This document shows, piece after piece, positions 1 to 16,310 of a DNA stretch of 29,394 bases. Made by a program: the position numbers and the translations under genes. The stretch's first letter is position 1; every line of letters starts with the position of its first letter. The stretch lies in IMG/VR virus record IMGVR_UViG_2690316131_000018, one strand, 5' to 3'. Origin of the DNA: a virus. Its lineage: Duplodnaviria > Heunggongvirae > Uroviricota > Caudoviricetes. The notes under the pieces are model-generated. The model searched no databases, had not been told where the DNA came from, and saw nothing but the letters and a program-made list of their open reading frames with translations.

Positions 1-117
<117 letters not shown>

Positions 118-140
<23 letters not shown>

Positions 141-1359
141 CTAATGCTTTCAGTTCTTCATCTGGCGGCAATAAACCAAGCTTTTGCATTTCAACCTTCA
201 CCCGATTTAATACAGTTCGCATCGCCTGCGCCGTTTCCTGAACAACAGGATTAGCATGCACATCACCGCTTCGCATAGCATTCCCAACCTGCTGACGAAA
301 TGAATCAAAACTCATGTCACCACCATCAGCTTTATACTTTGCGTATGCCTGTTTATTTCCGACAACAACAGCAGCTTCTTCACGCTGCCATCCACGTGTA
401 CGGGTTTCTACAGCTACCGGTGTTTCAATCCCCCTTTCATTTCCTTTAAGGGTGAAATTATTTTCGGCTAACTCCAGCGTTGTTTTTCGCACTGTCTTGG
501 ACGGAGACTCCATTAACCTTGTCAAAGGAGTAAGATAGCTCCCTGCTTTCCATGCAGCCTTTCCAACCACCCCACCGGAAACAGGGGTTAAATCATCCAG
601 AGTCGCTGTATCAATTTTCATAGCACCAACACTACCACCATCAGAAAGCGAAGCGGCAGCCCTGTCAGTCGCTGATGTAATGCTCATATTATCAAGAGCA
701 TCAGCAACCTCACGCGTGGCTGCAGCCCGGACGGATGGCGAAAGCGCAACACCAGCACTGGCAAACACGCCGCTCATCATCGCACCCGCTGCAATGTGAG
801 CGGCACTTTCACCCCATGAGCGTGTTATTTGCTGATTATTCAGCACAACCTCGCTTAATGCTGTACCGGCTGCACCAATCGCAATCTGTGAGCCAATACG
901 CGCCAGTGCCCCTCCTTGAGCACCAGGGATAAACATTGACGCAACAGTAACCGGATCCATTCCCGCAGCAATACTGGCAAGGGTTCCAACTACGCCAGCA
1001 TCAGACAATAAACGTCTGTCTTCATTTTCATCATCTATCTGCTGCTTAATCCACGCCGTTTCCTCTGGCGATCGGGAATCTGCAAATTTCGCCCCCCAGT
1101 ATTCATAACCGTGCAACTCATTTTTATCAGCATATGGGTTATAACCTTCGACCGGTTCAAACTGTCTGGCTGGTCGGAAAAAACCAGCCAGAATATTGTT
1201 CTGTCGCATTGCAGCCCCCCATACGGAAGGCTCCGGTGGCAATGGCTCAGGATTAGCCCCTTCCGGAAGGGCAACATCAAACCCAGTTTGTTCCGGCAAA
1301 ACATTACCTGACGGGATCAGTCCGTTATTAAGATCTTCAGCTTGTGCATAAACTGGCAT
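118..1359 (-). CDS. internal virion/ejection protein; 3' end replaced by IS5-derived sequence (probably truncated)
   Basis: 413-aa ORF whose start overlaps the stop of the upstream gene (TAATG). The last ~7 codons and the stop lie inside the IS element (<=140). Confidence 0.55.
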
Positions 1360-4076
1360 TATTTAGATCCCCACGAAAAGTAATCTTTAAATTTGTCCAT
1401 ACGTTCGTTATGCAGGCGCTGATACTGCTCATCCAGAGCGCGATGCTTGTCTTTGAAGTTTCGTATAGCCTGTCCACGCATAATTTCTTCCTGCTCGTAC
1501 TGCTCCCGTTCCTGCTGCATTTTCTTATAAGGTTCCCAATCTTCTAGTGATGGTTCCCAACGCATAGGACGCCCATGTTTGTTATAAAACGGCTGGACCC
1601 GATCGATGCCATTTTCATCCTTAGTTCTTACCATAATGGCGTAATCACCATTACGAGGTGTTAACACGTCAGGGGTTATGAATAATTCTCCATTAATACG
1701 ACTCTCAGGGGTTTTTGTCTCAACTACAGGAGCATTACCTGACGTGATCCCAAGCAACGTCGGACTGGTTGTTATAATCTCTTTGCGCTCACCGTACATC
1801 AGCCGTTCTTTTTCAGCTTTCCACTGCGCCGCCTGCCAGCCTGACGGCCCATATTGATAAAGCGCCTCCGGTGCATATTTCATAAACTGCGCTTCTCCGT
1901 TAACCTCGCTGATACTCCAGGTGCGGGCTATCTGCTGGTTGGTCATTTGCTTCGCTACGTCAGCGTTACCACCAGCAACGCGGTAGTTAATGTCATACAG
2001 CGTCTGATAGTCATTACGGAATCTAGCTGCTTCCGGCGTCTGGTCATCCGCAGACGGATCCCAACGGAACCACTGCGCCATATTGCTGACAGCAGAATTC
2101 ATCGCCTTGCTGCGATTATTTTTGTACTCTTTTGAACTCTGCGTTGATGCCAATTGAGCTTTAAGAGCATCGGTCTGGTTGTACGTCAGGTTCTGCGCCT
2201 GCTCGATAGCCGCATCAGCAGACATGCCAGAATCTGTTAGTTGCTTAACAGTCAGATAAAAACCCTGCATATCCTTCGGCATATTTCCAATAGATGCATT
2301 GTCTGTTTCATATAACCGACTAAACAAATTCGCTGCATTTTTAACCACTTCCTGATTGCTGGATCTGGATACTGCTGAAAGCTGCGTGATGACCTGCGAA
2401 GGCATGATGCCAGTCTGAGCCACAAGCCGAACAACCCCATCATGAGTGGAGGCATCATTAATACGAAAGTTCTGCGCCATTTCTGTGTAATCAGCAGCTT
2501 TCTGCATTGATTTGTTGCTTGGGTCTAATTTTTCACCTATTGTCAGCGCCTCATTGAATCTGCGTGAATCACGTTGCGCCTGAATTGCTTCATTTGATCG
2601 CTGAAGCAATGCAGACAATTTTCCGTAAGCATCGAGTTTTAACGCATAGTGAGGATCGTTAACCTCAGGCTTCACTTTCTGCATTTCTTCTTGCTGCTGA
2701 GAAGGAGGTAAATACTGAATTGCCTGGAATATTCTCGCGTTATCAATCGCTATATCCAGTTGATTGATTATTTTATCTGCATTTTTTCCATACCCCCTGA
2801 TGATAGTCTCCTGAGCCGGTATATAATCTGGAACCTCACCGTTATATAGCTGGGCCATGGTGTTATTAATAGCTGGCTCAAGCTGTTCTAATATTAACTT
2901 CCTTTGCTTTTCTATCTGACTATTAGCAAGGTTATCTATTTGATAAATAGTCAGCGGATCCATTCCAGTTTTATTTTTTCTATATCGGGAAAGCCACCCT
3001 TGTGTTTCTGATGGAAGATTTCGGATAAATTCTTCTTCTGATATTTCACCTTTACGTGGATCACCGACTTTGGCGATCAGTTTATCCACGTTACCCATCC
3101 CCCAGTTATATGCTGCTCCGGTCAATATTTCGGAGCCGTACTTACCATACAGTTGATTTACATAGTCACTGGCGAGCATTTCATGCTGTTGTTCGTCCGT
3201 AGGGTTGTATTTAACGCCACGCTTGGCCGCCAGTTCTTTCCCTGTGCCCGGCATTAACTGGTATTTCCCCTGGGCTCTCTCTCCAGAAGATGTTATCGGT
3301 CCTTCAAGAAGACTACCATCAGGATTAAAATGTCGATCACCTGATTCAACAAGGCGTATGGCACGCATGTCCATGCCTCCAGAATCATTTTTCTGAAACA
3401 GACCATTTAGCCATCCTTCTGGATTGGCAGCGGCATAATTCTTCGCCCGCATTTCTGTGGCACGGCGATCATCACTTTCTATTTCTTCCAGAATGCGTTC
3501 TTGTGACCATCCCCTGGCAGCTCCATATCTGGCAATGGCTACCATTCTGGAATTTCTGGCTAAAGTGGCAGTTTGCGGGTCATTCCAGGCATCCGCTTCA
3601 TTTTGTATCCATAATTTTCTCGTTGCCTGATATTGCTCATCTTCATAGGCATTTGTCTGCCCTATCTCATGTCTGAGAACTCCAGTACTGAACTGAATTT
3701 TCTGTGTTCTGGCTTGTTGCAAAAACATATTTCTTGCTGCTTCATCAGTCAATGAAGCAGCTATTTCTTCCACATCCTGATCAAATCCAGATATGTACTC
3801 TTGCCCCTTACCAATCGCATTTTTGCCTTGTTGTGCATAAAAACCGGTTTGAGGGTTATAAAGACGTTCATTGCTGCGCTGATTAAGCTGAAGGATGGCA
3901 TCCTGAGACAATGCAACATTCGCTTTCTGCCTGGCTTCACCATATGCCACCGCATACTGATCTGCGACATTCGCCAGCACCTGACCTGCTTGAGGAACAT
4001 CGAAGATCTGAAAACCACCGGTTTGCACACCACGACTTTGCACCTGGCGTCCGGATGTAGTAGGAACAACAGGCAT
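1359..4076 (-). CDS. internal virion protein with lytic transglycosylase (SLT-like) domain
   Basis: 905-aa ORF. Contains an ES...GKYQLMPGT...AAYNWGMGN pattern typical of SLT-family transglycosylases. ATGA overlap with the upstream gene at 4076. Confidence 0.7.
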   Translation of the reverse strand: MPVVPTTSGRQVQSRGVQTGGFQIFDVPQAGQVLANVADQYAVAYGEARQKANVALSQDAILQLNQRSNERLYNPQTGFYAQQGKNAIGKGQEYISGFDQDVEEIAASLTDEAARNMFLQQARTQKIQFSTGVLRHEIGQTNAYEDEQYQATRKLWIQNEADAWNDPQTATLARNSRMVAIARYGAARGWSQERILEEIESDDRRATEMRAKNYAAANPEGWLNGLFQKNDSGGMDMRAIRLVESGDRHFNPDGSLLEGPITSSGERAQGKYQLMPGTGKELAAKRGVKYNPTDEQQHEMLASDYVNQLYGKYGSEILTGAAYNWGMGNVDKLIAKVGDPRKGEISEEEFIRNLPSETQGWLSRYRKNKTGMDPLTIYQIDNLANSQIEKQRKLILEQLEPAINNTMAQLYNGEVPDYIPAQETIIRGYGKNADKIINQLDIAIDNARIFQAIQYLPPSQQQEEMQKVKPEVNDPHYALKLDAYGKLSALLQRSNEAIQAQRDSRRFNEALTIGEKLDPSNKSMQKAADYTEMAQNFRINDASTHDGVVRLVAQTGIMPSQVITQLSAVSRSSNQEVVKNAANLFSRLYETDNASIGNMPKDMQGFYLTVKQLTDSGMSADAAIEQAQNLTYNQTDALKAQLASTQSSKEYKNNRSKAMNSAVSNMAQWFRWDPSADDQTPEAARFRNDYQTLYDINYRVAGGNADVAKQMTNQQIARTWSISEVNGEAQFMKYAPEALYQYGPSGWQAAQWKAEKERLMYGERKEIITTSPTLLGITSGNAPVVETKTPESRINGELFITPDVLTPRNGDYAIMVRTKDENGIDRVQPFYNKHGRPMRWEPSLEDWEPYKKMQQEREQYEQEEIMRGQAIRNFKDKHRALDEQYQRLHNERMDKFKDYFSWGSK

Positions 4077-4651
4077 CAGTAACCTCCTATTTTGAATCGG
4101 GAGTCAGAATTCATAAAACCTGAGTTAGATAACATTGGCGTCCCACCACTAGATGTACTTCCTTTAGAGAACGGACTCCACGTCCCACCAAACATCTGGT
4201 ACGCACCGTATGCCTTCAGAGGCGCGGTGAGCAATGTTGTTGCTGCTCCCACATTCCCCTGTTTACGGGCTGAACTGGCTTCTGCTTTATAGTTGGCAGC
4301 CTGAACCTGATAACCGTAAGCCTCGCGTTGCGCGTTATTCACCGTCGTCAGAGAATCAAGAGCGCCAAACTGGGCAGTGTCGCCAAATATATCCAGCGCG
4401 TTACCTGTAGATAAATCAGCGCCGGTAGCCCCCATTGTCGCCGCCTGTGTACCAAGCCGCTGTCGGGTCTCTCTGCGCCGTTGCTCAGCTTCAGCGTTAC
4501 CTCTGTTTATTGCATCATTTGCCTGAGCTGTGGCTATATCTGCGTTCGCTTCTGCAACCTTCGAGGCATACTTTCCCTGTTGGTACTGGGTGTATGCCTG
4601 AATGCCACTCATGGCGAGCATTGCGCCACCAGCAATAACCGGATCGCACAT
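4076..4651 (-). CDS. internal virion protein (gp14-like by size and position)
   Basis: 191-aa ORF, Gly/Ala/Gln-rich. GGAGAG ribosome-binding site upstream. Stop/start overlaps on both sides. Confidence 0.55.
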   Translation of the reverse strand: MCDPVIAGGAMLAMSGIQAYTQYQQGKYASKVAEANADIATAQANDAINRGNAEAEQRRRETRQRLGTQAATMGATGADLSTGNALDIFGDTAQFGALDSLTTVNNAQREAYGYQVQAANYKAEASSARKQGNVGAATTLLTAPLKAYGAYQMFGGTWSPFSKGSTSSGGTPMLSNSGFMNSDSRFKIGGY

Positions 4652-5115
4652 TATTTTCTCTCCATGTGAAATCTGTGGAAATTAAGACCAAGAGCACCAT
4701 AAGGCGCGGCTTCTTCAAGCCTGAATCCAAGCCAGTGCAGCCATGCTTTGGCAACATGGTTTCGCTCGTCGACATAGTTTTCCAGGCGCGGATAAACTGC
4801 CAGCATCTGCTGCAATACAGGGCGGCAGTGGCGAAGAAATGTCTTCTGATATTTTTCGATACGGCTGGTTCCGACCAGCCAGGGCGTACCATTGCCACCG
4901 ATCATTGACGCCGGAGATACGCCAAACATGGTTACCAGTTCTCCGTTCGCGAACCCTGACCAGGCCATAGTCGCAGTACGCAGGCCAACACGCAGTGCAT
5001 CTTCGGTAGTCATCAGCGATACCGCATACAGTTCTTCAATATCAGCCTGACGAATATCCGGCAAAATCATCTGAAGATGCTCTTCGGTAGCGGGAATAAT
5101 TCGAACATCGATCAT
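4651..5115 (-). CDS. hypothetical virion-associated protein (gp13-like position)
   Basis: 154-aa ORF, ATG start with ATGA overlaps at both ends, inside the structural operon. Confidence 0.5.
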   Translation of the reverse strand: MIDVRIIPATEEHLQMILPDIRQADIEELYAVSLMTTEDALRVGLRTATMAWSGFANGELVTMFGVSPASMIGGNGTPWLVGTSRIEKYQKTFLRHCRPVLQQMLAVYPRLENYVDERNHVAKAWLHWLGFRLEEAAPYGALGLNFHRFHMERK

Positions 5116-7586
5116 CAGAATCCCCCAACAGTAAGGCGAGGAATAACGGCAAGAACAGACAGCGGCAACGGGTCAAGCTGACGGATTTTTACACGTCCGT
5201 TTTTGCCCCAGTTACTGTCCAGTTTCACTTCTACCTTTCCGGTAGCATCATCAACAGGATCATCGTAGAACTCGAATTCACGCTGTGGATATTCGTACCA
5301 TTTACCGCCGGGCGTAGTCGCCCAGATGCCGCGGCTGGCATTCACAACCAGAGTAACGGACGGGATCACCTGTTTTTTGTCCAGCAGCGTTTCCTGTCCG
5401 TTAATGTTGATATCCAGTGTTTCGAATTCAGCAGTTATTGGCAGGCCGATGTGAACTACAGCCCCCGGAGATTCCAGCGTGACGGCACCTCCGGAAACCA
5501 CTTTCTGTGGTTCCACGTTCGCATCAGAGAGAATGTTTACGGTCTGGCCTTCAAGATGAGACAGGCCTCCAAATGTCCGGCGCGCCATCTGCCAGTTCGT
5601 GGTGGCCACATTCCTGAGGGATGGCGGGACGTTCCTGTTAGCACGAACCACTACAGCGGTATTGCTGGTTACAGAAATAATGTCGCAACGTAATTCTTTT
5701 GACACCTCATCACCAGTATCAGGATCAGTTCCGGTATAAGGGAACTGTAGTTGCGCGCCGACATCACTACTGGTGAAGTACGCACCACCAGAAACACTGA
5801 TTGTATATTCCGCGCGGTAATCCCATTCACCAGAACCACCAGTGATGGTCATCGTTCTGTCAGACGTATTTCTTCCATCATAGCTAAGGCCAGAATCAAC
5901 AAAGAAAGCATCTTCATCGCTGGTAAATAAACGGCTGGACAGTCGCTCGATGTATCTCACTGTTTGCCCGTTAACGGTTCGGTTAACGACGAAATACACC
6001 GCATCTTCATTTCCTTCGCTGATACTGCATGTGCTTTCATATTTTCCGGTACTGGATTGTGGTGCCCATGCAAAAACCTGCTGATCACGCAAATAGGTCA
6101 TCACCAGTAATTTACCGTCATCACGAATGCAGAAGGCGCTGGAGTAAGGGACAATAGAGAAGCACCAGTCAACAATACTGTGCTTCTGAAAAAGATGATT
6201 GGCAAGGATGGTCAGGTCGTTCCCCTGATAGCCGTCAACATCGAATGAGTAGGCCAGATCACGGACAACACTGCCTTTCTCCTGGACGAACAGAGCAATA
6301 TTCGCCACGGCAATTGGTGGGACATTGCTCGAGCCATTTGATCCCTGAGAGCTGAATGCAAATGATGATGGGGTAAGCACTTTGTTCTGGTCGCCAGTGA
6401 TGACGTACTCACCTCCGGAAGTCAGCGCCACCAGCGAACCAACATCAATCAGGTGACGGATCTCATTAACCTGACGCCCGGCATAGGTGTAGATAATTCT
6501 GTCGTCATCCTGCGTAGGATTGCTTTTGCCAAAATCCTTATAATCCCCGGTACGGCTGGCCCAGATAGTCTGAGGAAACGCAGTCGATGCGGCGAAGTAA
6601 AGACGTTGTTGATAATAAACAACAGTGCCAGGATAACCATTAACACTGTTCCAGGCATATTTAGCCCATTTATAGCTGGCATTATCCTCGCCCACGACCT
6701 GCGAAGGGATATAGGAAATCACCTCGGCAGTTGCAGTAGTTCCATTTGCAGCAGTGATACGGGCAATGCCAAAACCACTGTGCAGATATTCCCACTCAAT
6801 GCCAGTATCATCATCACCGGATCCGCCCCAGCCATCTCATGATGTGCCTTCTGTATGCGAAGGGCGCAAAGTACCTGTTTTGCCTGCTGTAACGGCGCGA
6901 TAGTAGTTACTGTCTGCACGGCGAATATCGCCAATCGACGTACTCTTACTGGTTTCCCATACCGGCACTGAATCCACTGCAGGCTGTTCCAGATAGAACA
7001 ATTTGCCTACCTGCTCCGCGCCAAAAATAGAGGCGCTTGCCGTTAACGTAATTGTCCCGGTGCTGGCGCTGGCATAAACCGTCACTGACTCGTCAATATT
7101 GATATCTTCAAATGGCCCGTTCTTCGTTACCACATCAACCAGTTGCCAGTTGTCATGAGCATATCGGCGCAACTCTTTCGGCGGGTATGCCGGGTGAACC
7201 AGCGTAAGCACGTCGGCGCTTTGCGTGAATTTAATTCGGAACAGATCGGCTTCAGTATATGGCGTGGCAATTTCATAAATAACATTGCTGCTGTTCAGCA
7301 CCAACGCACCATCTTTGATAACGCGCATGTACTGGTGTCCGAACTCCAGAGCATAGGTCTGAACCGTCGAGAACTCGAACGGGATCAGGCGGCATTTCCG
7401 ATTTGGGTATTTGGCGGCACCGACAAAACGCGTACCAGGTCGATTCTCAACGCCGCCATACTGCCGCACGATAAAGTTATCGCACTTGCGCAATGCTACC
7501 TGGTACTTCGCCATGTCAATACGCCCGTACAACGACGGTCCAATCTCACCACCGGCAAAGCTGGGCTGGATCCAACTGATAGCCAT
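5115..7586 (-). pseudogene. tail tubular protein B-like (T7 gp12-like) gene interrupted by an in-frame TGA
   Basis: ORFs 6837..7586 (249 aa) and 5115..6722 (535 aa) are in the same frame. The 38 codons between them (6723-6836) are all sense; only TGA at 6837-6839 separates them. No ATG or usable ribosome-binding site precedes the second part. The N-terminus (MAISWIQPSFAGGEIG) resembles the start of T7 gp12 from memory, and combined length is ~820 aa. Confidence 0.6.
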
Positions 7587-8194
7587 CAGGACAACCTCGC
7601 AATGGTAAACTCATCAACCGGTGGCTGTGGTTCCTGTGATTCATTCTGGCTATGCGAGCCAGCACTAAGAATCACGCGATTGTACATATTGAGGGCAAAC
7701 GTACCGAGGTCTGCATTCCCAGTCAGCGCCATGTTAATAGCTGCCGCAAGACGCCAGGCCAACGCCTCCATAAAAATGGCATCAAACATGTTCACATCTG
7801 TAACGCGAGAGACATACTTGAGCCATGCCTGAGGCTGGTCTGTGTAGATCAACTTTCCTGTTCCGTTGGTGTCTGCACCAACTTCGTACTGAACGCGCAT
7901 TGCTGCTGTTGGATTGCGTACACCAGGAAGCATAATTTCAGTAATGCGCAGACAATCTGACGGGTACTGGTACGCATATTCCCAGTCAGGCGGTGGATTG
8001 CTCGTATCTGCAAGCGCCACGCGTTTGGTAGCAAAGTTCCAGTCAAAATCAGAAAGCACAGCATCACGACAGGCCTCAAAGTGCAGCGAACATTCCCCCG
8101 CTTCCTTGCTGGCTTCCGTCAGGCTGTTAATGCTGCGGCTGTTGCCAATATTGGACAGCGCACGATTACAGATCTCTACTACAGAGGCCATCAC
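7586..8194 (-). CDS. tail tubular protein A-like (T7 gp11-like) protein
   Basis: ~200-aa ORF. N-terminal pattern ALSNIG...SLTEA resembles gp11 from memory. GGAGG ribosome-binding site; probable ATG at 8191 overlapping the upstream stop. Confidence 0.55.
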   Translation of the reverse strand: MMASVVEICNRALSNIGNSRSINSLTEASKEAGECSLHFEACRDAVLSDFDWNFATKRVALADTSNPPPDWEYAYQYPSDCLRITEIMLPGVRNPTAAMRVQYEVGADTNGTGKLIYTDQPQAWLKYVSRVTDVNMFDAIFMEALAWRLAAAINMALTGNADLGTFALNMYNRVILSAGSHSQNESQEPQPPVDEFTIARLS

Positions 8195-13720: not shown

Positions 13721-13797
13721 GTGGCATTAGCTCAGTCGGACAGAGCAACCGCCTTCTAAGCGGTTGGTCGCAGGTTCGAATCCTGCATGCCACGCCA
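13721..13797 (+). tRNA. tRNA-Arg (anticodon UCU), phage-encoded
   Basis: 77-nt cloverleaf folded by hand: acceptor stem GTGGCAT/ATGCCAC, D-stem GCTC/GAGC, anticodon stem ACCGC/GCGGT with loop CTTCTAA, T-arm GCAGG-TTCGAAT-CCTGC, discriminator G and encoded CCA. D- and T-arms resemble host argU; acceptor and anticodon stems differ. Confidence 0.85.
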
Positions 13798-14019: not shown

Positions 14020-14838
14020 ATGAAAAAATTCAAGGTAATTAGCATGTTTGAATCGTTCAAAGAGCTGTTTTTATCTACTGCCAATACTGCCGTGAATCGA
14101 GCCAAAAACCCTGTGCTTGGTGCTTTTGTTATGTCCTGGTGCGCCTTCAACTGGAAATCAATTCTTTATCTATTTTTTAGCAAATCAAACATAATAGATA
14201 AAATTTCATATATCTCAGATAACAGCACATGGAAAACTGTTATGTTTTATCCATGCTTATCTGTAATTGCTATCTGCTGCCTATTACCATGGGTAAACAA
14301 TATCATTAACGTATGGCAAGCAAAGCCTCTTGATAATAATGACTCAATCGAAAATCACCTGAAGGCAAGAAAAATCCAGCGTGAAACAAGACTGCAGAGG
14401 TTATTGGCTAAAAAAGATGTTACATACGACAAAGTTAAGACTGGCGCGGAAAAAGACATCCAAGAGATGAAAGAAGAGATTATTCGATCAAAGAATAGTA
14501 TGGGGGAATTGACTGCCGAGTTGAAAGCTAAAGATGACGAATTGAGATCCGCCAGTGCTCAGTTAGCAGCTCTAAATCATTCATTAAAAGAGATATCGGA
14601 AACTCTTGGAAGAATGAATGAGGCATATAAGACCCTCCAAAATGATTTCGACGAATACAAACTCAAATACCCTGAAAAATCTCAAATAAAAAGCCTTGCA
14701 CTTGGCAACGGCCAAACAATTAGCAACTTTTTGGAGCAACACAACTTATCCGGATTAAAATCTGGTAAGCCAAACGTTTTTAATAACTTTGGTGTTCTAT
14801 CTGGATTATCAGGTTTCGAGGATAAAAATAAAGACTAA
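14020..14838 (+). CDS. AT-rich cargo gene: predicted membrane protein with long C-terminal coiled coil, unknown function
   Basis: The track ORF starts at 13948, but the probable start is the ATG at ~14020 (MKKFKVISMF), just after a TATAAT. Two hydrophobic segments near the N-terminus, then a charged heptad-like region. AT-rich versus the rest of the window. Convergent with the terminase gene, stops overlapping. Confidence 0.6.
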   Translation: MKKFKVISMFESFKELFLSTANTAVNRAKNPVLGAFVMSWCAFNWKSILYLFFSKSNIIDKISYISDNSTWKTVMFYPCLSVIAICCLLPWVNNIINVWQAKPLDNNDSIENHLKARKIQRETRLQRLLAKKDVTYDKVKTGAEKDIQEMKEEIIRSKNSMGELTAELKAKDDELRSASAQLAALNHSLKEISETLGRMNEAYKTLQNDFDEYKLKYPEKSQIKSLALGNGQTISNFLEQHNLSGLKSGKPNVFNNFGVLSGLSGFEDKNKD

Positions 14839-16310
14839 GCATATGGATCGTACTCGGTAAGCGCCTTGCCTTGCTGGTTCTGCTGCCCGGGAAGTCGCAG
14901 GCGCTTTGACACCGGGAAAGCAAACGTCAGCAGTAGCGCATCGCCTTTACCAGGAGAACGCCCAAGACGCTCTTTGATATCTTCCTTCGGTTCGATAACG
15001 ATTTTACCGTCCACACGAACTTTGTACTCTGCCGCCGACAGGTCGTCTGCAGTTTCCTGGTCATCCAGCATGCCGCCCAGCCTCAGCCATGTCTTACATG
15101 AGTTGAACATCTCCCCACGCTTGTTAAGCATCTGCGGGTCAGTGGACGCACCGCCGAACGGAACAAGTTGCCATGTACGCCCCCAGCCATCACCGATTGA
15201 CTTCAAACCGGTTCCGTAACCGAAGTCGATGAACACCGCGTCAGCCTGATACTGGTCTTCAAAGTCAGCGATACGCTTCGCCATAATCAGATCGTCAGTG
15301 GTCTTGTTGCCAGTCCACAGCACCTTACTGTGCAGCCCCTGCCGCAGGTATATCGCAGCGTCATCAACACCGGAGTATGCCGGGTCAACGCCGATTATCA
15401 CCGGAGCATGTACCACCTGCGCAGCGGTTACCACCCGTTTCATTGCCTCATCAGTAAGACCGGTAGGGATAAACTGCAATTCAGATGCATCAGGGAATAT
15501 GCCGCGCACACGGATTTTAACGAAGTCGCTGTCTTCCCCGTAGTCATCAACCCATTTCTGCAACTGCTATTTGTTAGTGCCTTCCACCGTCCGGCTGTCA
15601 ATCTGCGCAGTTTTCCAGCGGTGTTTGTATTTGCGGAAACATTCGCGAAAACGCCCGGTGTTACGTGTAGGGTTTCCGAACGCCACCCAGATAATCTCAG
15701 TGTCTTCGTCCGTAAGAGCACCCTCAGCAACTTCCCACACCAGATCCGCAATGTTCGACGCTTCATCAAATACCACGATGATGCGTTTGCGCTCGTTGTG
15801 TAGTCCGGCGAATGCCTCAGTGTTGTGCTCAGACCAGGGTATTGCGTCAGCCCGCCACCGCTTGTCGTGCCCAGGGTCATTGCTGTACATCGCGGTAGCG
15901 GTACAGGTAAACCAGTCTTTCGTGATGGCAAGGTTCGACCACTTGATAATTTCCGGCCAGGTCTTCGTTCGTAGCTGGTTGTCGGTGTTGGCGGTCACCA
16001 CGACCTTACAATCCTCGCAAGTGGACATGCCCCAGTTGATCAGCATTGAGATGAATGCGGATTTACCAATACCGTGACCAGAAGCGCGTGCCAGCATAAG
16101 CGGCTGATAGCGCGTCTCTGGATTCTGCAGGTGATCACGTATCTCTCGGAACGCATCGGCCTGCCACTGACGTGGACCGGTAGCATGTGCCAGTTCAGTC
16201 CCCTCTTCCCCCCAAGGGAACGCATAGAGGGCATAGCCAAGCGGATCGTGAGTGAACCCTGCAATATCTTCGATTAACTGCTCTTCAGGAGATAACGCTG
16301 CATCTGTCAC
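14835..16310 (-). pseudogene. terminase large subunit interrupted by an in-frame TAG
   Basis: ORF 15567..16310 has Walker A (GHGIGKS) and Walker B (IIVVFDEAS) motifs; ORF 14835..15563 has a nuclease-like Asp-rich region. Both are in one frame, separated only by TAG at 15567-15569 plus one sense codon. The second ORF starts at TTG, not ATG. Confidence 0.7.

What the first reader, a model, noticed from the sequence alone, without database searches (positions are those of the whole stretch)
6720..6839. In-frame opal codon inside the gp12-like tail-tube gene
TGA at 6837-6839 is followed by 38 sense codons in the same frame before the next ORF begins at GTG with no ribosome-binding site. This reads as a single ~820-aa gene carrying a nonsense mutation. 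A second nonsense lesion in an essential virion gene supports a decaying prophage; rare programmed read-through is the alternative.
Basis: seen in the sequence. Interest (0 to 1): 0.6.

Follow-up and report, generated by a model that had tools for sequence, protein, structure and literature searches.

The report
Nonsense-mutated tail nozzle gene, decaying prophage
A single G-to-A change has turned a conserved tryptophan codon into a stop in the tail-nozzle gene of an epsilon15/phiV10-like prophage of E. coli that carries two further knock-out lesions, so this is ordinary prophage decay, not recoding.

Summary
On the minus strand, TGA at 6837-6839 is codon 250 of an 823-codon frame (7586..5115). 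It is followed by 38 sense codons and a GTG with no Shine-Dalgarno sequence.

The window is the first 29.4 kb of E. coli draft contig CYDD01000008.1. It holds a Uetakevirus (phiV10/epsilon15-like) prophage next to guaA. The gene is the epsilon15 gp12 / phiV10 p15 homologue, the tubular-tail-B or "nozzle" protein.

- **Relatives:** phiV10, ZX5 and E. coli BE311 read TGG (Trp) there. Of 120 homologue cluster representatives, all are single 819-826 aa proteins with W, Y or F at this position. A solved 830-aa "Tail Nozzle" chain aligns across the site in one piece.
- **Rarity:** no complete E. coli genome matches the TGA 61-mer, while 358 records match the TGG version exactly.
- **Not a read error:** the same allele is in a second NCBI assembly and two Logan run assemblies.
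- **No recoding signal:** there is no Rfam hit, no unusual downstream structure and no suppressor tRNA. TGA ends 16 of 31 genes here.
- **Other lesions:** a private amber codon in the large terminase (15567-15569) and an IS5 insertion in an internal-virion-protein gene (1-140).

Interest is low.

The parts
5115..7586 (-). Tail nozzle (tubular tail B; epsilon15 gp12 / phiV10 p15 homologue) gene. 823 codons plus terminal TGA, now a pseudogene because of one internal stop.
6837..6839 (-). Opal codon TGA at codon 250. Derived from TGG (Trp) by a G-to-A change at window 6837 (C-to-T on the + strand).
   Evidence: No complete E. coli genome is identical to the TGA 61-mer; 358 records are identical to the TGG version.
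6840..7586 (-). The part still translated from the native start: a 249-aa N-terminal fragment, 30% of the protein. Deposited as CTV28859.1 / CTV52133.1 'phage protein'.
6723..6836 (-). 38 in-frame sense codons between the stop and the next possible start. They encode conserved nozzle sequence (DGWGGSGDDDTGIEWEYLHSGFG...).
5115..6722 (-). Mechanical 535-aa ORF from GTG. It is the C-terminal 65% of the nozzle gene, has no Shine-Dalgarno sequence, and is not an independent gene. Deposited as CTV28839.1.
14835..16310 (-). Large terminase gene (491 codons) with an internal amber codon. The second nonsense lesion of the prophage.
15567..15569 (-). Amber TAG at terminase codon 248. Derived from CAG (Gln).
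   Evidence: No complete genome is identical to the TAG 61-mer; 288 records are identical to the CAG version.
1..140 (.). End of an IS5-family element (IS5/ISKpn26), with the terminal inverted repeat at 121-140. The contig begins inside it.
141..1359 (-). First ~406 codons of a 1004-aa internal virion (ejection) protein gene, cut by the IS5 insertion at a CTAA target (141-144).

Best explanation
The feature is a plain loss-of-function nonsense mutation. TGG(Trp250) became TGA in the tail nozzle gene of an integrated Uetakevirus (phiV10/epsilon15-like) prophage of E. coli.

Shown: the base change, its derived state, its reality in several assemblies, and the two other inactivating lesions in the same prophage.

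Inferred mechanism:
- Ribosomes starting at the native ATG (7586) terminate at codon 250 and release a 249-residue fragment. That fragment lacks the remaining 70% of the nozzle, so no functional hexameric nozzle can be built and heads could not acquire a closed tail.
- The 535-codon ORF downstream is not a gene. It has no ribosome-binding site and would be translated only after rare UGA read-through.
- The nozzle stop overlaps the start of the next gene (TGATG at 5113-5117), and that gene has no Shine-Dalgarno sequence of its own. Premature termination should therefore also lower expression of the downstream internal-virion-protein genes, through lost translational coupling and possibly Rho-dependent polarity.
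- With the amber codon in the large terminase and the IS5 insertion in an ejection-protein gene, the prophage should be unable to make infectious particles. Its integrase, repressor region, recombination and replication genes remain intact.

This is a recently grounded, decaying prophage.
For: - **Identity of the element and gene.** The region is 97.9-99.0% identical in DNA to phiV10, ZX5, TL-2011b and related phages and 77% to epsilon15. In those records one CDS of 2472-2478 nt covers it. The same holds in E. coli BE311 and FDAARGOS_1300.
- **The change.** The only difference in the codon is TGG to TGA.
- **Selection before the lesion.** Against BE311 the gene has 38 differences. Of these, 34 are synonymous, 3 are missense and 1 is the stop, so the gene was under purifying selection until recently.
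- **Conservation of the site.** It lies in the motif GTLRPSHTEG..WDGWGG. Position 250 is W in 115, Y in 3 and F in 2 of 120 cluster representatives, all 819-826 aa long at 100% query coverage. The solved chain 8ck1_A 'Tail Nozzle' (830 aa) aligns to residues 2-822 in one stretch, E = 5e-218, with W opposite W250.
- **The allele is real.** The 249-aa product is on 4 contigs: GCA_001284925.1 (the window itself) and Logan ERR15728851, plus the same split in GCA_001285885.1 (2 mismatches in 20.7 kb) and Logan ERR137821.
- **The allele is rare.** No record in 5,426 complete E. coli genomes is identical to the 61-mer with TGA, while 358 are identical to the TGG version.
- **Other lesions.** TerL carries Q248 amber. 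IS5 cuts the 1004-aa gene. All other genes compared are intact.
- **No restart signal** downstream of the stop.
Against: - Nothing observed contradicts this reading.
- No expression or phenotype data are available, so loss of function is inferred, not shown.
- UGA is the leakiest stop codon in E. coli. A K-12 reporter showed about 2-4% read-through by Trp-tRNA(Trp) (PMC10570021). Read-through here would restore the wild-type residue, so the nozzle lesion alone might be leaky rather than null.
- The rest of the prophage (tailspike, lysis genes, the far side of the IS5) lies outside the window and was not examined.
- For 159 of 517 E. coli records the 61-mer differs from both versions elsewhere. 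Codon 250 was not read individually in those.
Confidence: 0.93

Rival explanations
1. Sequencing or assembly error: the true base is G (TGG) and the gene is intact.
For: The source is a draft assembly. The contig ends inside an IS5 copy. The change is a single base.
Against: The identical 249-aa product and the identical DNA are found in a second NCBI assembly (GCA_001285885.1, 2 mismatches in 20,744 bases elsewhere). They are also in Logan assemblies of runs ERR137821 and ERR15728851. A slightly different 249-aa variant (Q71, N184) and a variant 535-aa C-terminal ORF (GDH81518.1) also exist in the protein collection. The site is not in a homopolymer run.
Confidence: 0.02
2. Programmed recoding: the TGA is decoded on purpose, by stimulated read-through, selenocysteine insertion or a suppressor tRNA, to give the full-length nozzle.
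For: The downstream frame stays open and conserved. Trp-tRNA(Trp) is the natural near-cognate reader of UGA in E. coli and would restore the wild-type residue. About 2-4% read-through was measured in a K-12 reporter (PMC10570021).
Against: The stop is not conserved. phiV10, ZX5, epsilon15-group phages, 358 E. coli records and 120/120 cluster representatives have a sense (aromatic) codon there. No Rfam family matches 6400-7200 at E up to 1. The 86 nt from the stop onward fold no better than shuffles (z = +0.58; 137 of 200 shuffles fold at least as well). The only tRNA in the window is an ordinary tRNA-Arg(TCT). TGA terminates 16 of 31 genes in the window, including this gene itself. The downstream sequence is the same as in relatives that encode Trp, so no signal has evolved.
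Confidence: 0.015
3. A natural, functional split of the nozzle into two polypeptides, as in phage phiRIO-1 (gp44 + gp40).
For: A split tubular tail B whose two polypeptides were both detected separately on SDS-PAGE is documented for phiRIO-1 (PMC4819975). PHROGs holds separate families for an N-terminal part (phrog_20269) and a C-terminal part (phrog_15566) of this protein.
Against: The second part has no start codon with a ribosome-binding site. Between the two ORFs lie 38 codons of conserved nozzle sequence that would be lost. The break falls inside a conserved motif, not at a domain linker. No homologue at 82% identity or more is split. The paper itself states that splits are uncommon in this family. 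The allele co-occurs with two other knock-out lesions.
Confidence: 0.01

Closest known systems
epsilon15 gp12 (NP_848220) / phiV10 p15 (YP_512269), the tubular tail B homologue of the epsilon15 homology group
   Same: Same gene in the same place. phiV10 is 97.9% identical in DNA and epsilon15 77%. The gene has the same length, 823-825 codons. It has the same neighbours: a gp11-like adaptor upstream, and gp13, a T7_gp14-family protein and an SLT-domain protein downstream.
   Different: Those genes are intact, with TGG at codon 250. The window copy has TGA.
PDB 8ck1 chain A, 'Tail Nozzle' (830 aa)
   Same: Collinear sequence match over residues 2-822, E = 5e-218. The Trp at the mutated position is conserved.
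   Different: It is a different phage, and I could not identify the organism or the paper. It is a full-length single chain.
T7 gp12 (tail tubular protein B, nozzle)
   Same: Same position in the gene order and same proposed role. HMM-HMM similarity between the epsilon15 and T7 groups is reported at E < 1e-10, limited to a central ~200-residue domain (PMC4819975).
   Different: No direct match was found with the tools used here. Pfam and NCBIfam gave nothing, and a profile search of PDB found only 8ck1 and 9efk. 'gp12-like' is therefore a distant-homology label taken from the literature.
phiRIO-1 gp44 + gp40, a naturally split tubular tail B
   Same: A tubular tail B encoded as two polypeptides.
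   Different: There the two genes have their own starts, are separated by other genes, and both products were detected as separate polypeptides. Here a point mutation interrupts a continuous frame and no second start signal exists.
Defective (cryptic) prophages of E. coli inactivated by point mutations and IS insertions; classical amber and opal phage mutants
   Same: Same kind of lesions, a nonsense codon and an IS insertion, in morphogenesis genes of an otherwise well-preserved integrated phage. This comparison rests on general knowledge.
   Different: None of principle. This is one more instance, at an early stage of decay.

Membership tests
Tubular tail B / nozzle protein, epsilon15 homology group | Full-length collinear sequence similarity to epsilon15 gp12 / phiV10 p15 | tested here: met
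   There is 97.9% DNA identity to phiV10 and 77% to epsilon15 over the whole gene. phrog_376 'tail protein' matches both halves in order.
Tubular tail B / nozzle protein, epsilon15 homology group | Similarity to a structurally solved nozzle | tested here: met
   8ck1_A 'Tail Nozzle', E = 5e-218 with a single protein and 3e-234 with a profile.
Tubular tail B / nozzle protein, epsilon15 homology group | Conserved gene order: adaptor (tubular tail A), then nozzle, then internal virion proteins | tested here: met
   The upstream gene matches phrog_394 and phrog_9239 (tail / tail tubular protein). Downstream genes match Pfam T7_gp14 and SLT. The order is the same as in epsilon15 and phiV10.
T7 gp12 family in the strict sense | Direct sequence or fold match to T7 gp12 | tested here: inconclusive
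   No Pfam or NCBIfam hit, and no T7 gp12 chain in the PDB profile search. The AlphaFold model was too poor for a fold search (mean pLDDT 40). The link rests on published HMM-HMM comparisons (PMC4819975).
Nonsense-disrupted pseudogene in a defective prophage | Orthologues have a sense codon at the site and a single continuous gene | tested here: met
Nonsense-disrupted pseudogene in a defective prophage | The stop is real, i.e. reproduced in independent sequence data | tested here: met
   Raw read pile-ups themselves were not available.
Nonsense-disrupted pseudogene in a defective prophage | Further inactivating lesions in the same element | tested here: met
   TerL amber. IS5 insertion in the 1004-aa internal virion protein gene.
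Nonsense-disrupted pseudogene in a defective prophage | Loss of protein and of phage production | not testable with these tools
   Needs induction, plaque or electron-microscopy assays, and a western blot or mass spectrometry.
Programmed stop-codon read-through / selenocysteine / code reassignment | The stop codon is conserved among relatives | tested here: not met
Programmed stop-codon read-through / selenocysteine / code reassignment | A downstream stimulatory RNA structure (SECIS or read-through element) | tested here: not met
   No Rfam hit at E up to 1. Folding z-score is +0.58.
Programmed stop-codon read-through / selenocysteine / code reassignment | A suppressor tRNA, or TGA avoided as a terminator | tested here: not met
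   The only tRNA is tRNA-Arg(TCT). TGA ends 16 of 31 genes.

The most novel reading that the evidence does not exclude
The opal lesion may be phenotypically leaky. Ordinary near-cognate decoding of UGA by Trp-tRNA(Trp) would insert the wild-type residue, so a small percentage of full-length, fully wild-type nozzle could still be made. Only a few copies are needed per virion (six if the hub is hexameric, as reported for epsilon15). The nozzle gene could then act as a down-tuned rather than dead gene, and the prophage's block would rest on the terminase amber codon and the IS5 insertion. Nothing here suggests that this is selected or programmed.
Probability: 0.03. Interest if true: 0.3.

Novelty: already known. 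Interest (0 to 1): 0.08.

Why it matters
It matters little beyond annotation. The two ORFs deposited as separate 'phage proteins' (CTV28859.1 and CTV28839.1) are halves of one pseudogene. The prophage should be scored as defective. It is a clean example of early prophage decay: three independent knock-outs (opal, amber, IS5) in morphogenesis genes, while the integrase, repressor region, recombination and replication genes and all other structural genes remain intact. It also shows that ORF-level prophage 'completeness' calls can miss single-base inactivation.

Tried and rejected
- **Domain libraries.** Pfam and NCBIfam scans of both halves and of a full-length homologue gave no family.
- **Structure.** AlphaFold2 on a 23-sequence alignment of 82-99% identical homologues gave mean pLDDT 40 and pTM 0.28. 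The model is unusable, so no fold search was run and W250 could not be placed in a fold.
- **Exact-pattern scans.** Scans for the 37-mer carrying the TGA found nothing in the one-genome-per-species collection or in JGI metagenome contigs. The allele was found only through the exact-protein look-up.
- **Variant truncated proteins.** Whether they carry the same TGA on a different background is therefore inferred from protein ends only.
- **PDB entry 8CK1.** A literature search returned only an unrelated paper, and 'tail nozzle' + epsilon15 gave no paper on that entry.
- **Selenocysteine and read-through elements.** Considered and rejected.
- **Suppressor tRNA or code reassignment.** Rejected.
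- **Re-initiation at GTG 6722 or three later in-frame starts.** Rejected for lack of any Shine-Dalgarno match.

Full report
**1. The observation**

All genes of this part of the window lie on the minus strand. The + strand reads TCA at 6837-6839, which is TGA on the coding strand.

Translating 7586..5115 (-) gives a frame of 823 codons that ends in TGA and has one internal stop at codon 250. The mechanical ORF list splits it into 6837..7586 (249 aa, ATG) and 5115..6722 (535 aa, GTG). Both are in the same frame.

Between them are exactly 38 sense codons (6836..6723). The GTG at 6722-6720, and the next three in-frame start codons, have no Shine-Dalgarno match. Most neighbouring genes have one.

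So every element of the description is right. An open stretch of 38 codons is not significant in itself (about 0.16 by chance, my arithmetic). The homology across the stop is what decides the case.

**2. What the region is**

The window is identical to the first 17.6 kb held for contig CYDD01000008.1 of assembly GCA_001284925.1, E. coli. At 97-99% identity it matches the temperate podophages phiV10, TL-2011b, ZX5, phiv142-3 and PAS61 (genus Uetakevirus). It matches epsilon15 at about 77%.

Related prophages, detected through a 501-bp piece of this gene, occur in 527 of 5,426 complete E. coli genomes. In the two relatives whose flanks I read, BE311 and 20AR0300, the prophage lies between yfgI and guaA, with the integrase gene next to guaA. 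The window ends exactly at the integrase start.

The interrupted gene is the orthologue of phiV10 p15 and epsilon15 gp12. In those records, in ZX5, in E. coli BE311 and in FDAARGOS_1300 it is one CDS of 2472-2478 nt.

- **Literature.** Hardies et al. list epsilon15 gp12 as the tubular tail B homologue of the epsilon15 homology group. They relate it to T7 gp12 by HMM-HMM comparison in a central ~200-residue domain (PMC4819975).
- **Solved structure.** A chain that its depositors call 'Tail Nozzle' (8ck1_A, 830 aa) aligns to residues 2-822 in one stretch at E = 5e-218.
- **Gene order.** It fits a podophage tail and ejectosome module: a gp11-like adaptor upstream, then the nozzle, then gp13, a T7_gp14-family protein, an SLT-domain protein and a large internal virion protein.
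- **Limit of the label.** Direct matches to T7 gp12 were not obtained with Pfam, NCBIfam or a PDB profile search. 'gp12-like' is correct for epsilon15 gp12 and only distantly so for T7 gp12.

**3. The lesion**

phiV10, ZX5 and BE311 read TCA TGG GAT where the window reads TCA TGA GAT. This is a single G-to-A transition on the coding strand at window 6837.

- **Divergence pattern.** Against BE311 the gene differs at 38 positions: 34 synonymous, 3 missense and the stop. This is the pattern of a gene kept by purifying selection until very recently.
- **Conservation of the site.** Codon 250 sits in the conserved motif GTLRPSHTEG..WDGWGG. Among 120 cluster representatives at 82-99% identity, position 250 is W in 115, Y in 3 and F in 2. 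These clusters stand for several thousand member sequences. All the proteins are 819-826 aa long and cover 100% of the query. The junction therefore lies inside conserved sequence, not at a linker, and no close homologue is split.
- **Precedent for a split.** The only documented natural split of a tubular tail B is in the distant phage phiRIO-1. There the two genes have their own starts, and the authors note that splits are uncommon.
- **Rarity.** In complete E. coli genomes, no record is identical to the 61-mer centred on the TGA, whereas 358 of 517 records are identical to the same 61-mer with TGG. The other 159 differ elsewhere in the 61-mer, and I did not read their codon individually.

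**4. It is not an error**

The exact 249-aa product occurs on four contigs. NCBI holds it under two accessions.

- GCA_001285885.1 has the same split of both the nozzle and the terminase, and differs from the window at only 2 of 20,744 bases.
- Logan assemblies of runs ERR137821 (12 kb) and ERR15728851 (2 kb) are 100% identical to the window, including the TGA.
- A 249-aa variant (Q71, N184) and a 535-aa variant (GDH81518.1) also exist. This hints that the allele is present on slightly different backgrounds. I could not fetch their DNA.

**5. It is not recoding**

- No Rfam family matches 6400-7200 on either strand at E up to 1.
- The 86 nt from the stop onward fold no better than shuffled sequence (z = +0.58).
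- The only tRNA in the window is tRNA-Arg(TCT).
- TGA is the terminator of 16 of 31 genes in the window, including the nozzle gene itself.
- The stop is absent from all relatives examined.

What remains is ordinary UGA leakiness. In E. coli K-12 a reporter showed about 2-4% read-through through Trp-tRNA(Trp) competing with RF2 (PMC10570021). Because the lost residue is Trp, any such read-through would give wild-type protein. This is a caveat about how tight the block is, not evidence of design.

**6. Context: two more lesions**

A gene-by-gene comparison with intact relatives found only two other defects.

- **Large terminase (16310..14835).** It has TAG at 15567-15569 where BE311 has CAG (Gln248). 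No complete genome is identical to the TAG 61-mer, and 288 records are identical to the CAG version.
- **IS5 insertion.** Window 1-140 is the end of an IS5/ISKpn26 element. Its inverted repeat is at 121-140 and a CTAA target follows at 141-144. The element cuts a 1004-aa internal-virion-protein gene after about 406 codons, and the contig ends inside the IS.

All other genes compared are intact and mostly 97-100% identical to relatives. These include the portal, protease, major capsid, Bbp16/Bbp19-like proteins, staple, adaptor, gp13, gp14, the SLT protein, small terminase, replication genes, the repressor region, RecT/YqaJ and integrase.

One more sign of relaxed constraint is Q71E in the nozzle. 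It is unique to this allele, at a position that is Q in 120/120 homologues.

**7. Mechanism**

Shown: the mutation and its setting.

Inferred:
- Termination at codon 250 yields a 27 kDa fragment without the central and C-terminal 70% of the protein, so no nozzle can assemble.
- The nozzle stop overlaps the gp13 start (TGATG), and gp13 lacks a Shine-Dalgarno sequence of its own. Expression of the downstream ejection-protein genes should therefore also drop.
- The terminase amber codon blocks DNA packaging, and the IS5 insertion removes an ejection protein.

The prophage is therefore very probably unable to produce infectious particles. It may still confer immunity and whatever its early genes provide.

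**8. Verdict**

The feature is real but ordinary: a private nonsense mutation in a recently inactivated prophage, already present in public databases as two 'phage protein' entries. Novelty is 'already known'. Interest is low.

**9. Dead ends**

The structure prediction was too poor to use. Collection scans for the exact 37-mer found nothing. The paper behind 8CK1 was not found.

Noticed in passing
window 15567-15569 (-), within the large terminase gene 14835-16310: There is an in-frame amber codon (CAG Gln248 to TAG) in the large terminase. No complete E. coli genome is identical to the 61-mer carrying it, while 288 records match the CAG version. It co-occurs with the nozzle TGA in GCA_001285885.1 and ERR137821.
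   Followed up: yes
window 1-144 and 141-1359 (-): The end of an IS5/ISKpn26 element (inverted repeat at 121-140, CTAA target at 141-144) interrupts a 1004-aa internal virion protein gene after about 406 codons. The contig starts inside the IS, so what lies beyond it is unknown: the rest of the gene, the tailspike and the lysis genes.
   Followed up: partly
L010 (Logan SRR21357613), 776-1516; corresponds to window 15570-16310: This contig is only about 95% identical in DNA to the window, yet it ends exactly at the base before the terminase amber site and gives the same 247-aa product. It could be an assembly-graph branch at that very site in a mixed sample, or coincidence.
   Followed up: no
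window 7376 (-), nozzle codon 71: There is a private missense change, Q71E, at a position that is Q in 120/120 homologue representatives. A Logan variant with the same 249-aa truncation still has Q71. The stop may therefore be older than Q71E, which would fit relaxed selection after inactivation.
   Followed up: partly
window 5113-5117, 7584-7588, 4649-4653, 4074-4078, 1357-1361 (-): The tail and ejectosome genes (gp11-like, nozzle, gp13, gp14, SLT protein, IVP) are chained by one-base stop/start overlaps. The overlap was read as TGATG at the two nozzle junctions. For the other three it is inferred from the shared ORF coordinates. Several downstream starts have weak or no Shine-Dalgarno sequence, which implies translational coupling and hence polarity of the nonsense mutation.
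   Followed up: partly
nozzle protein vs PHROGs (window 5118-7586): Besides the full-length family phrog_376 (712 positions), PHROGs has separate families for an N-terminal part (phrog_20269, 374) and a C-terminal part (phrog_15566, 552). This suggests that some deposited phage or prophage genomes also carry or annotate fragments of this gene.
   Followed up: no
window 13721-13797 (+); 13523 and 13647: There is a phage-borne tRNA-Arg(TCT) in the gap between the portal-side genes and the terminase-side genes, as in BE311. Relative to BE311, the window has two single-base insertions in the non-coding stretch just upstream.
   Followed up: no
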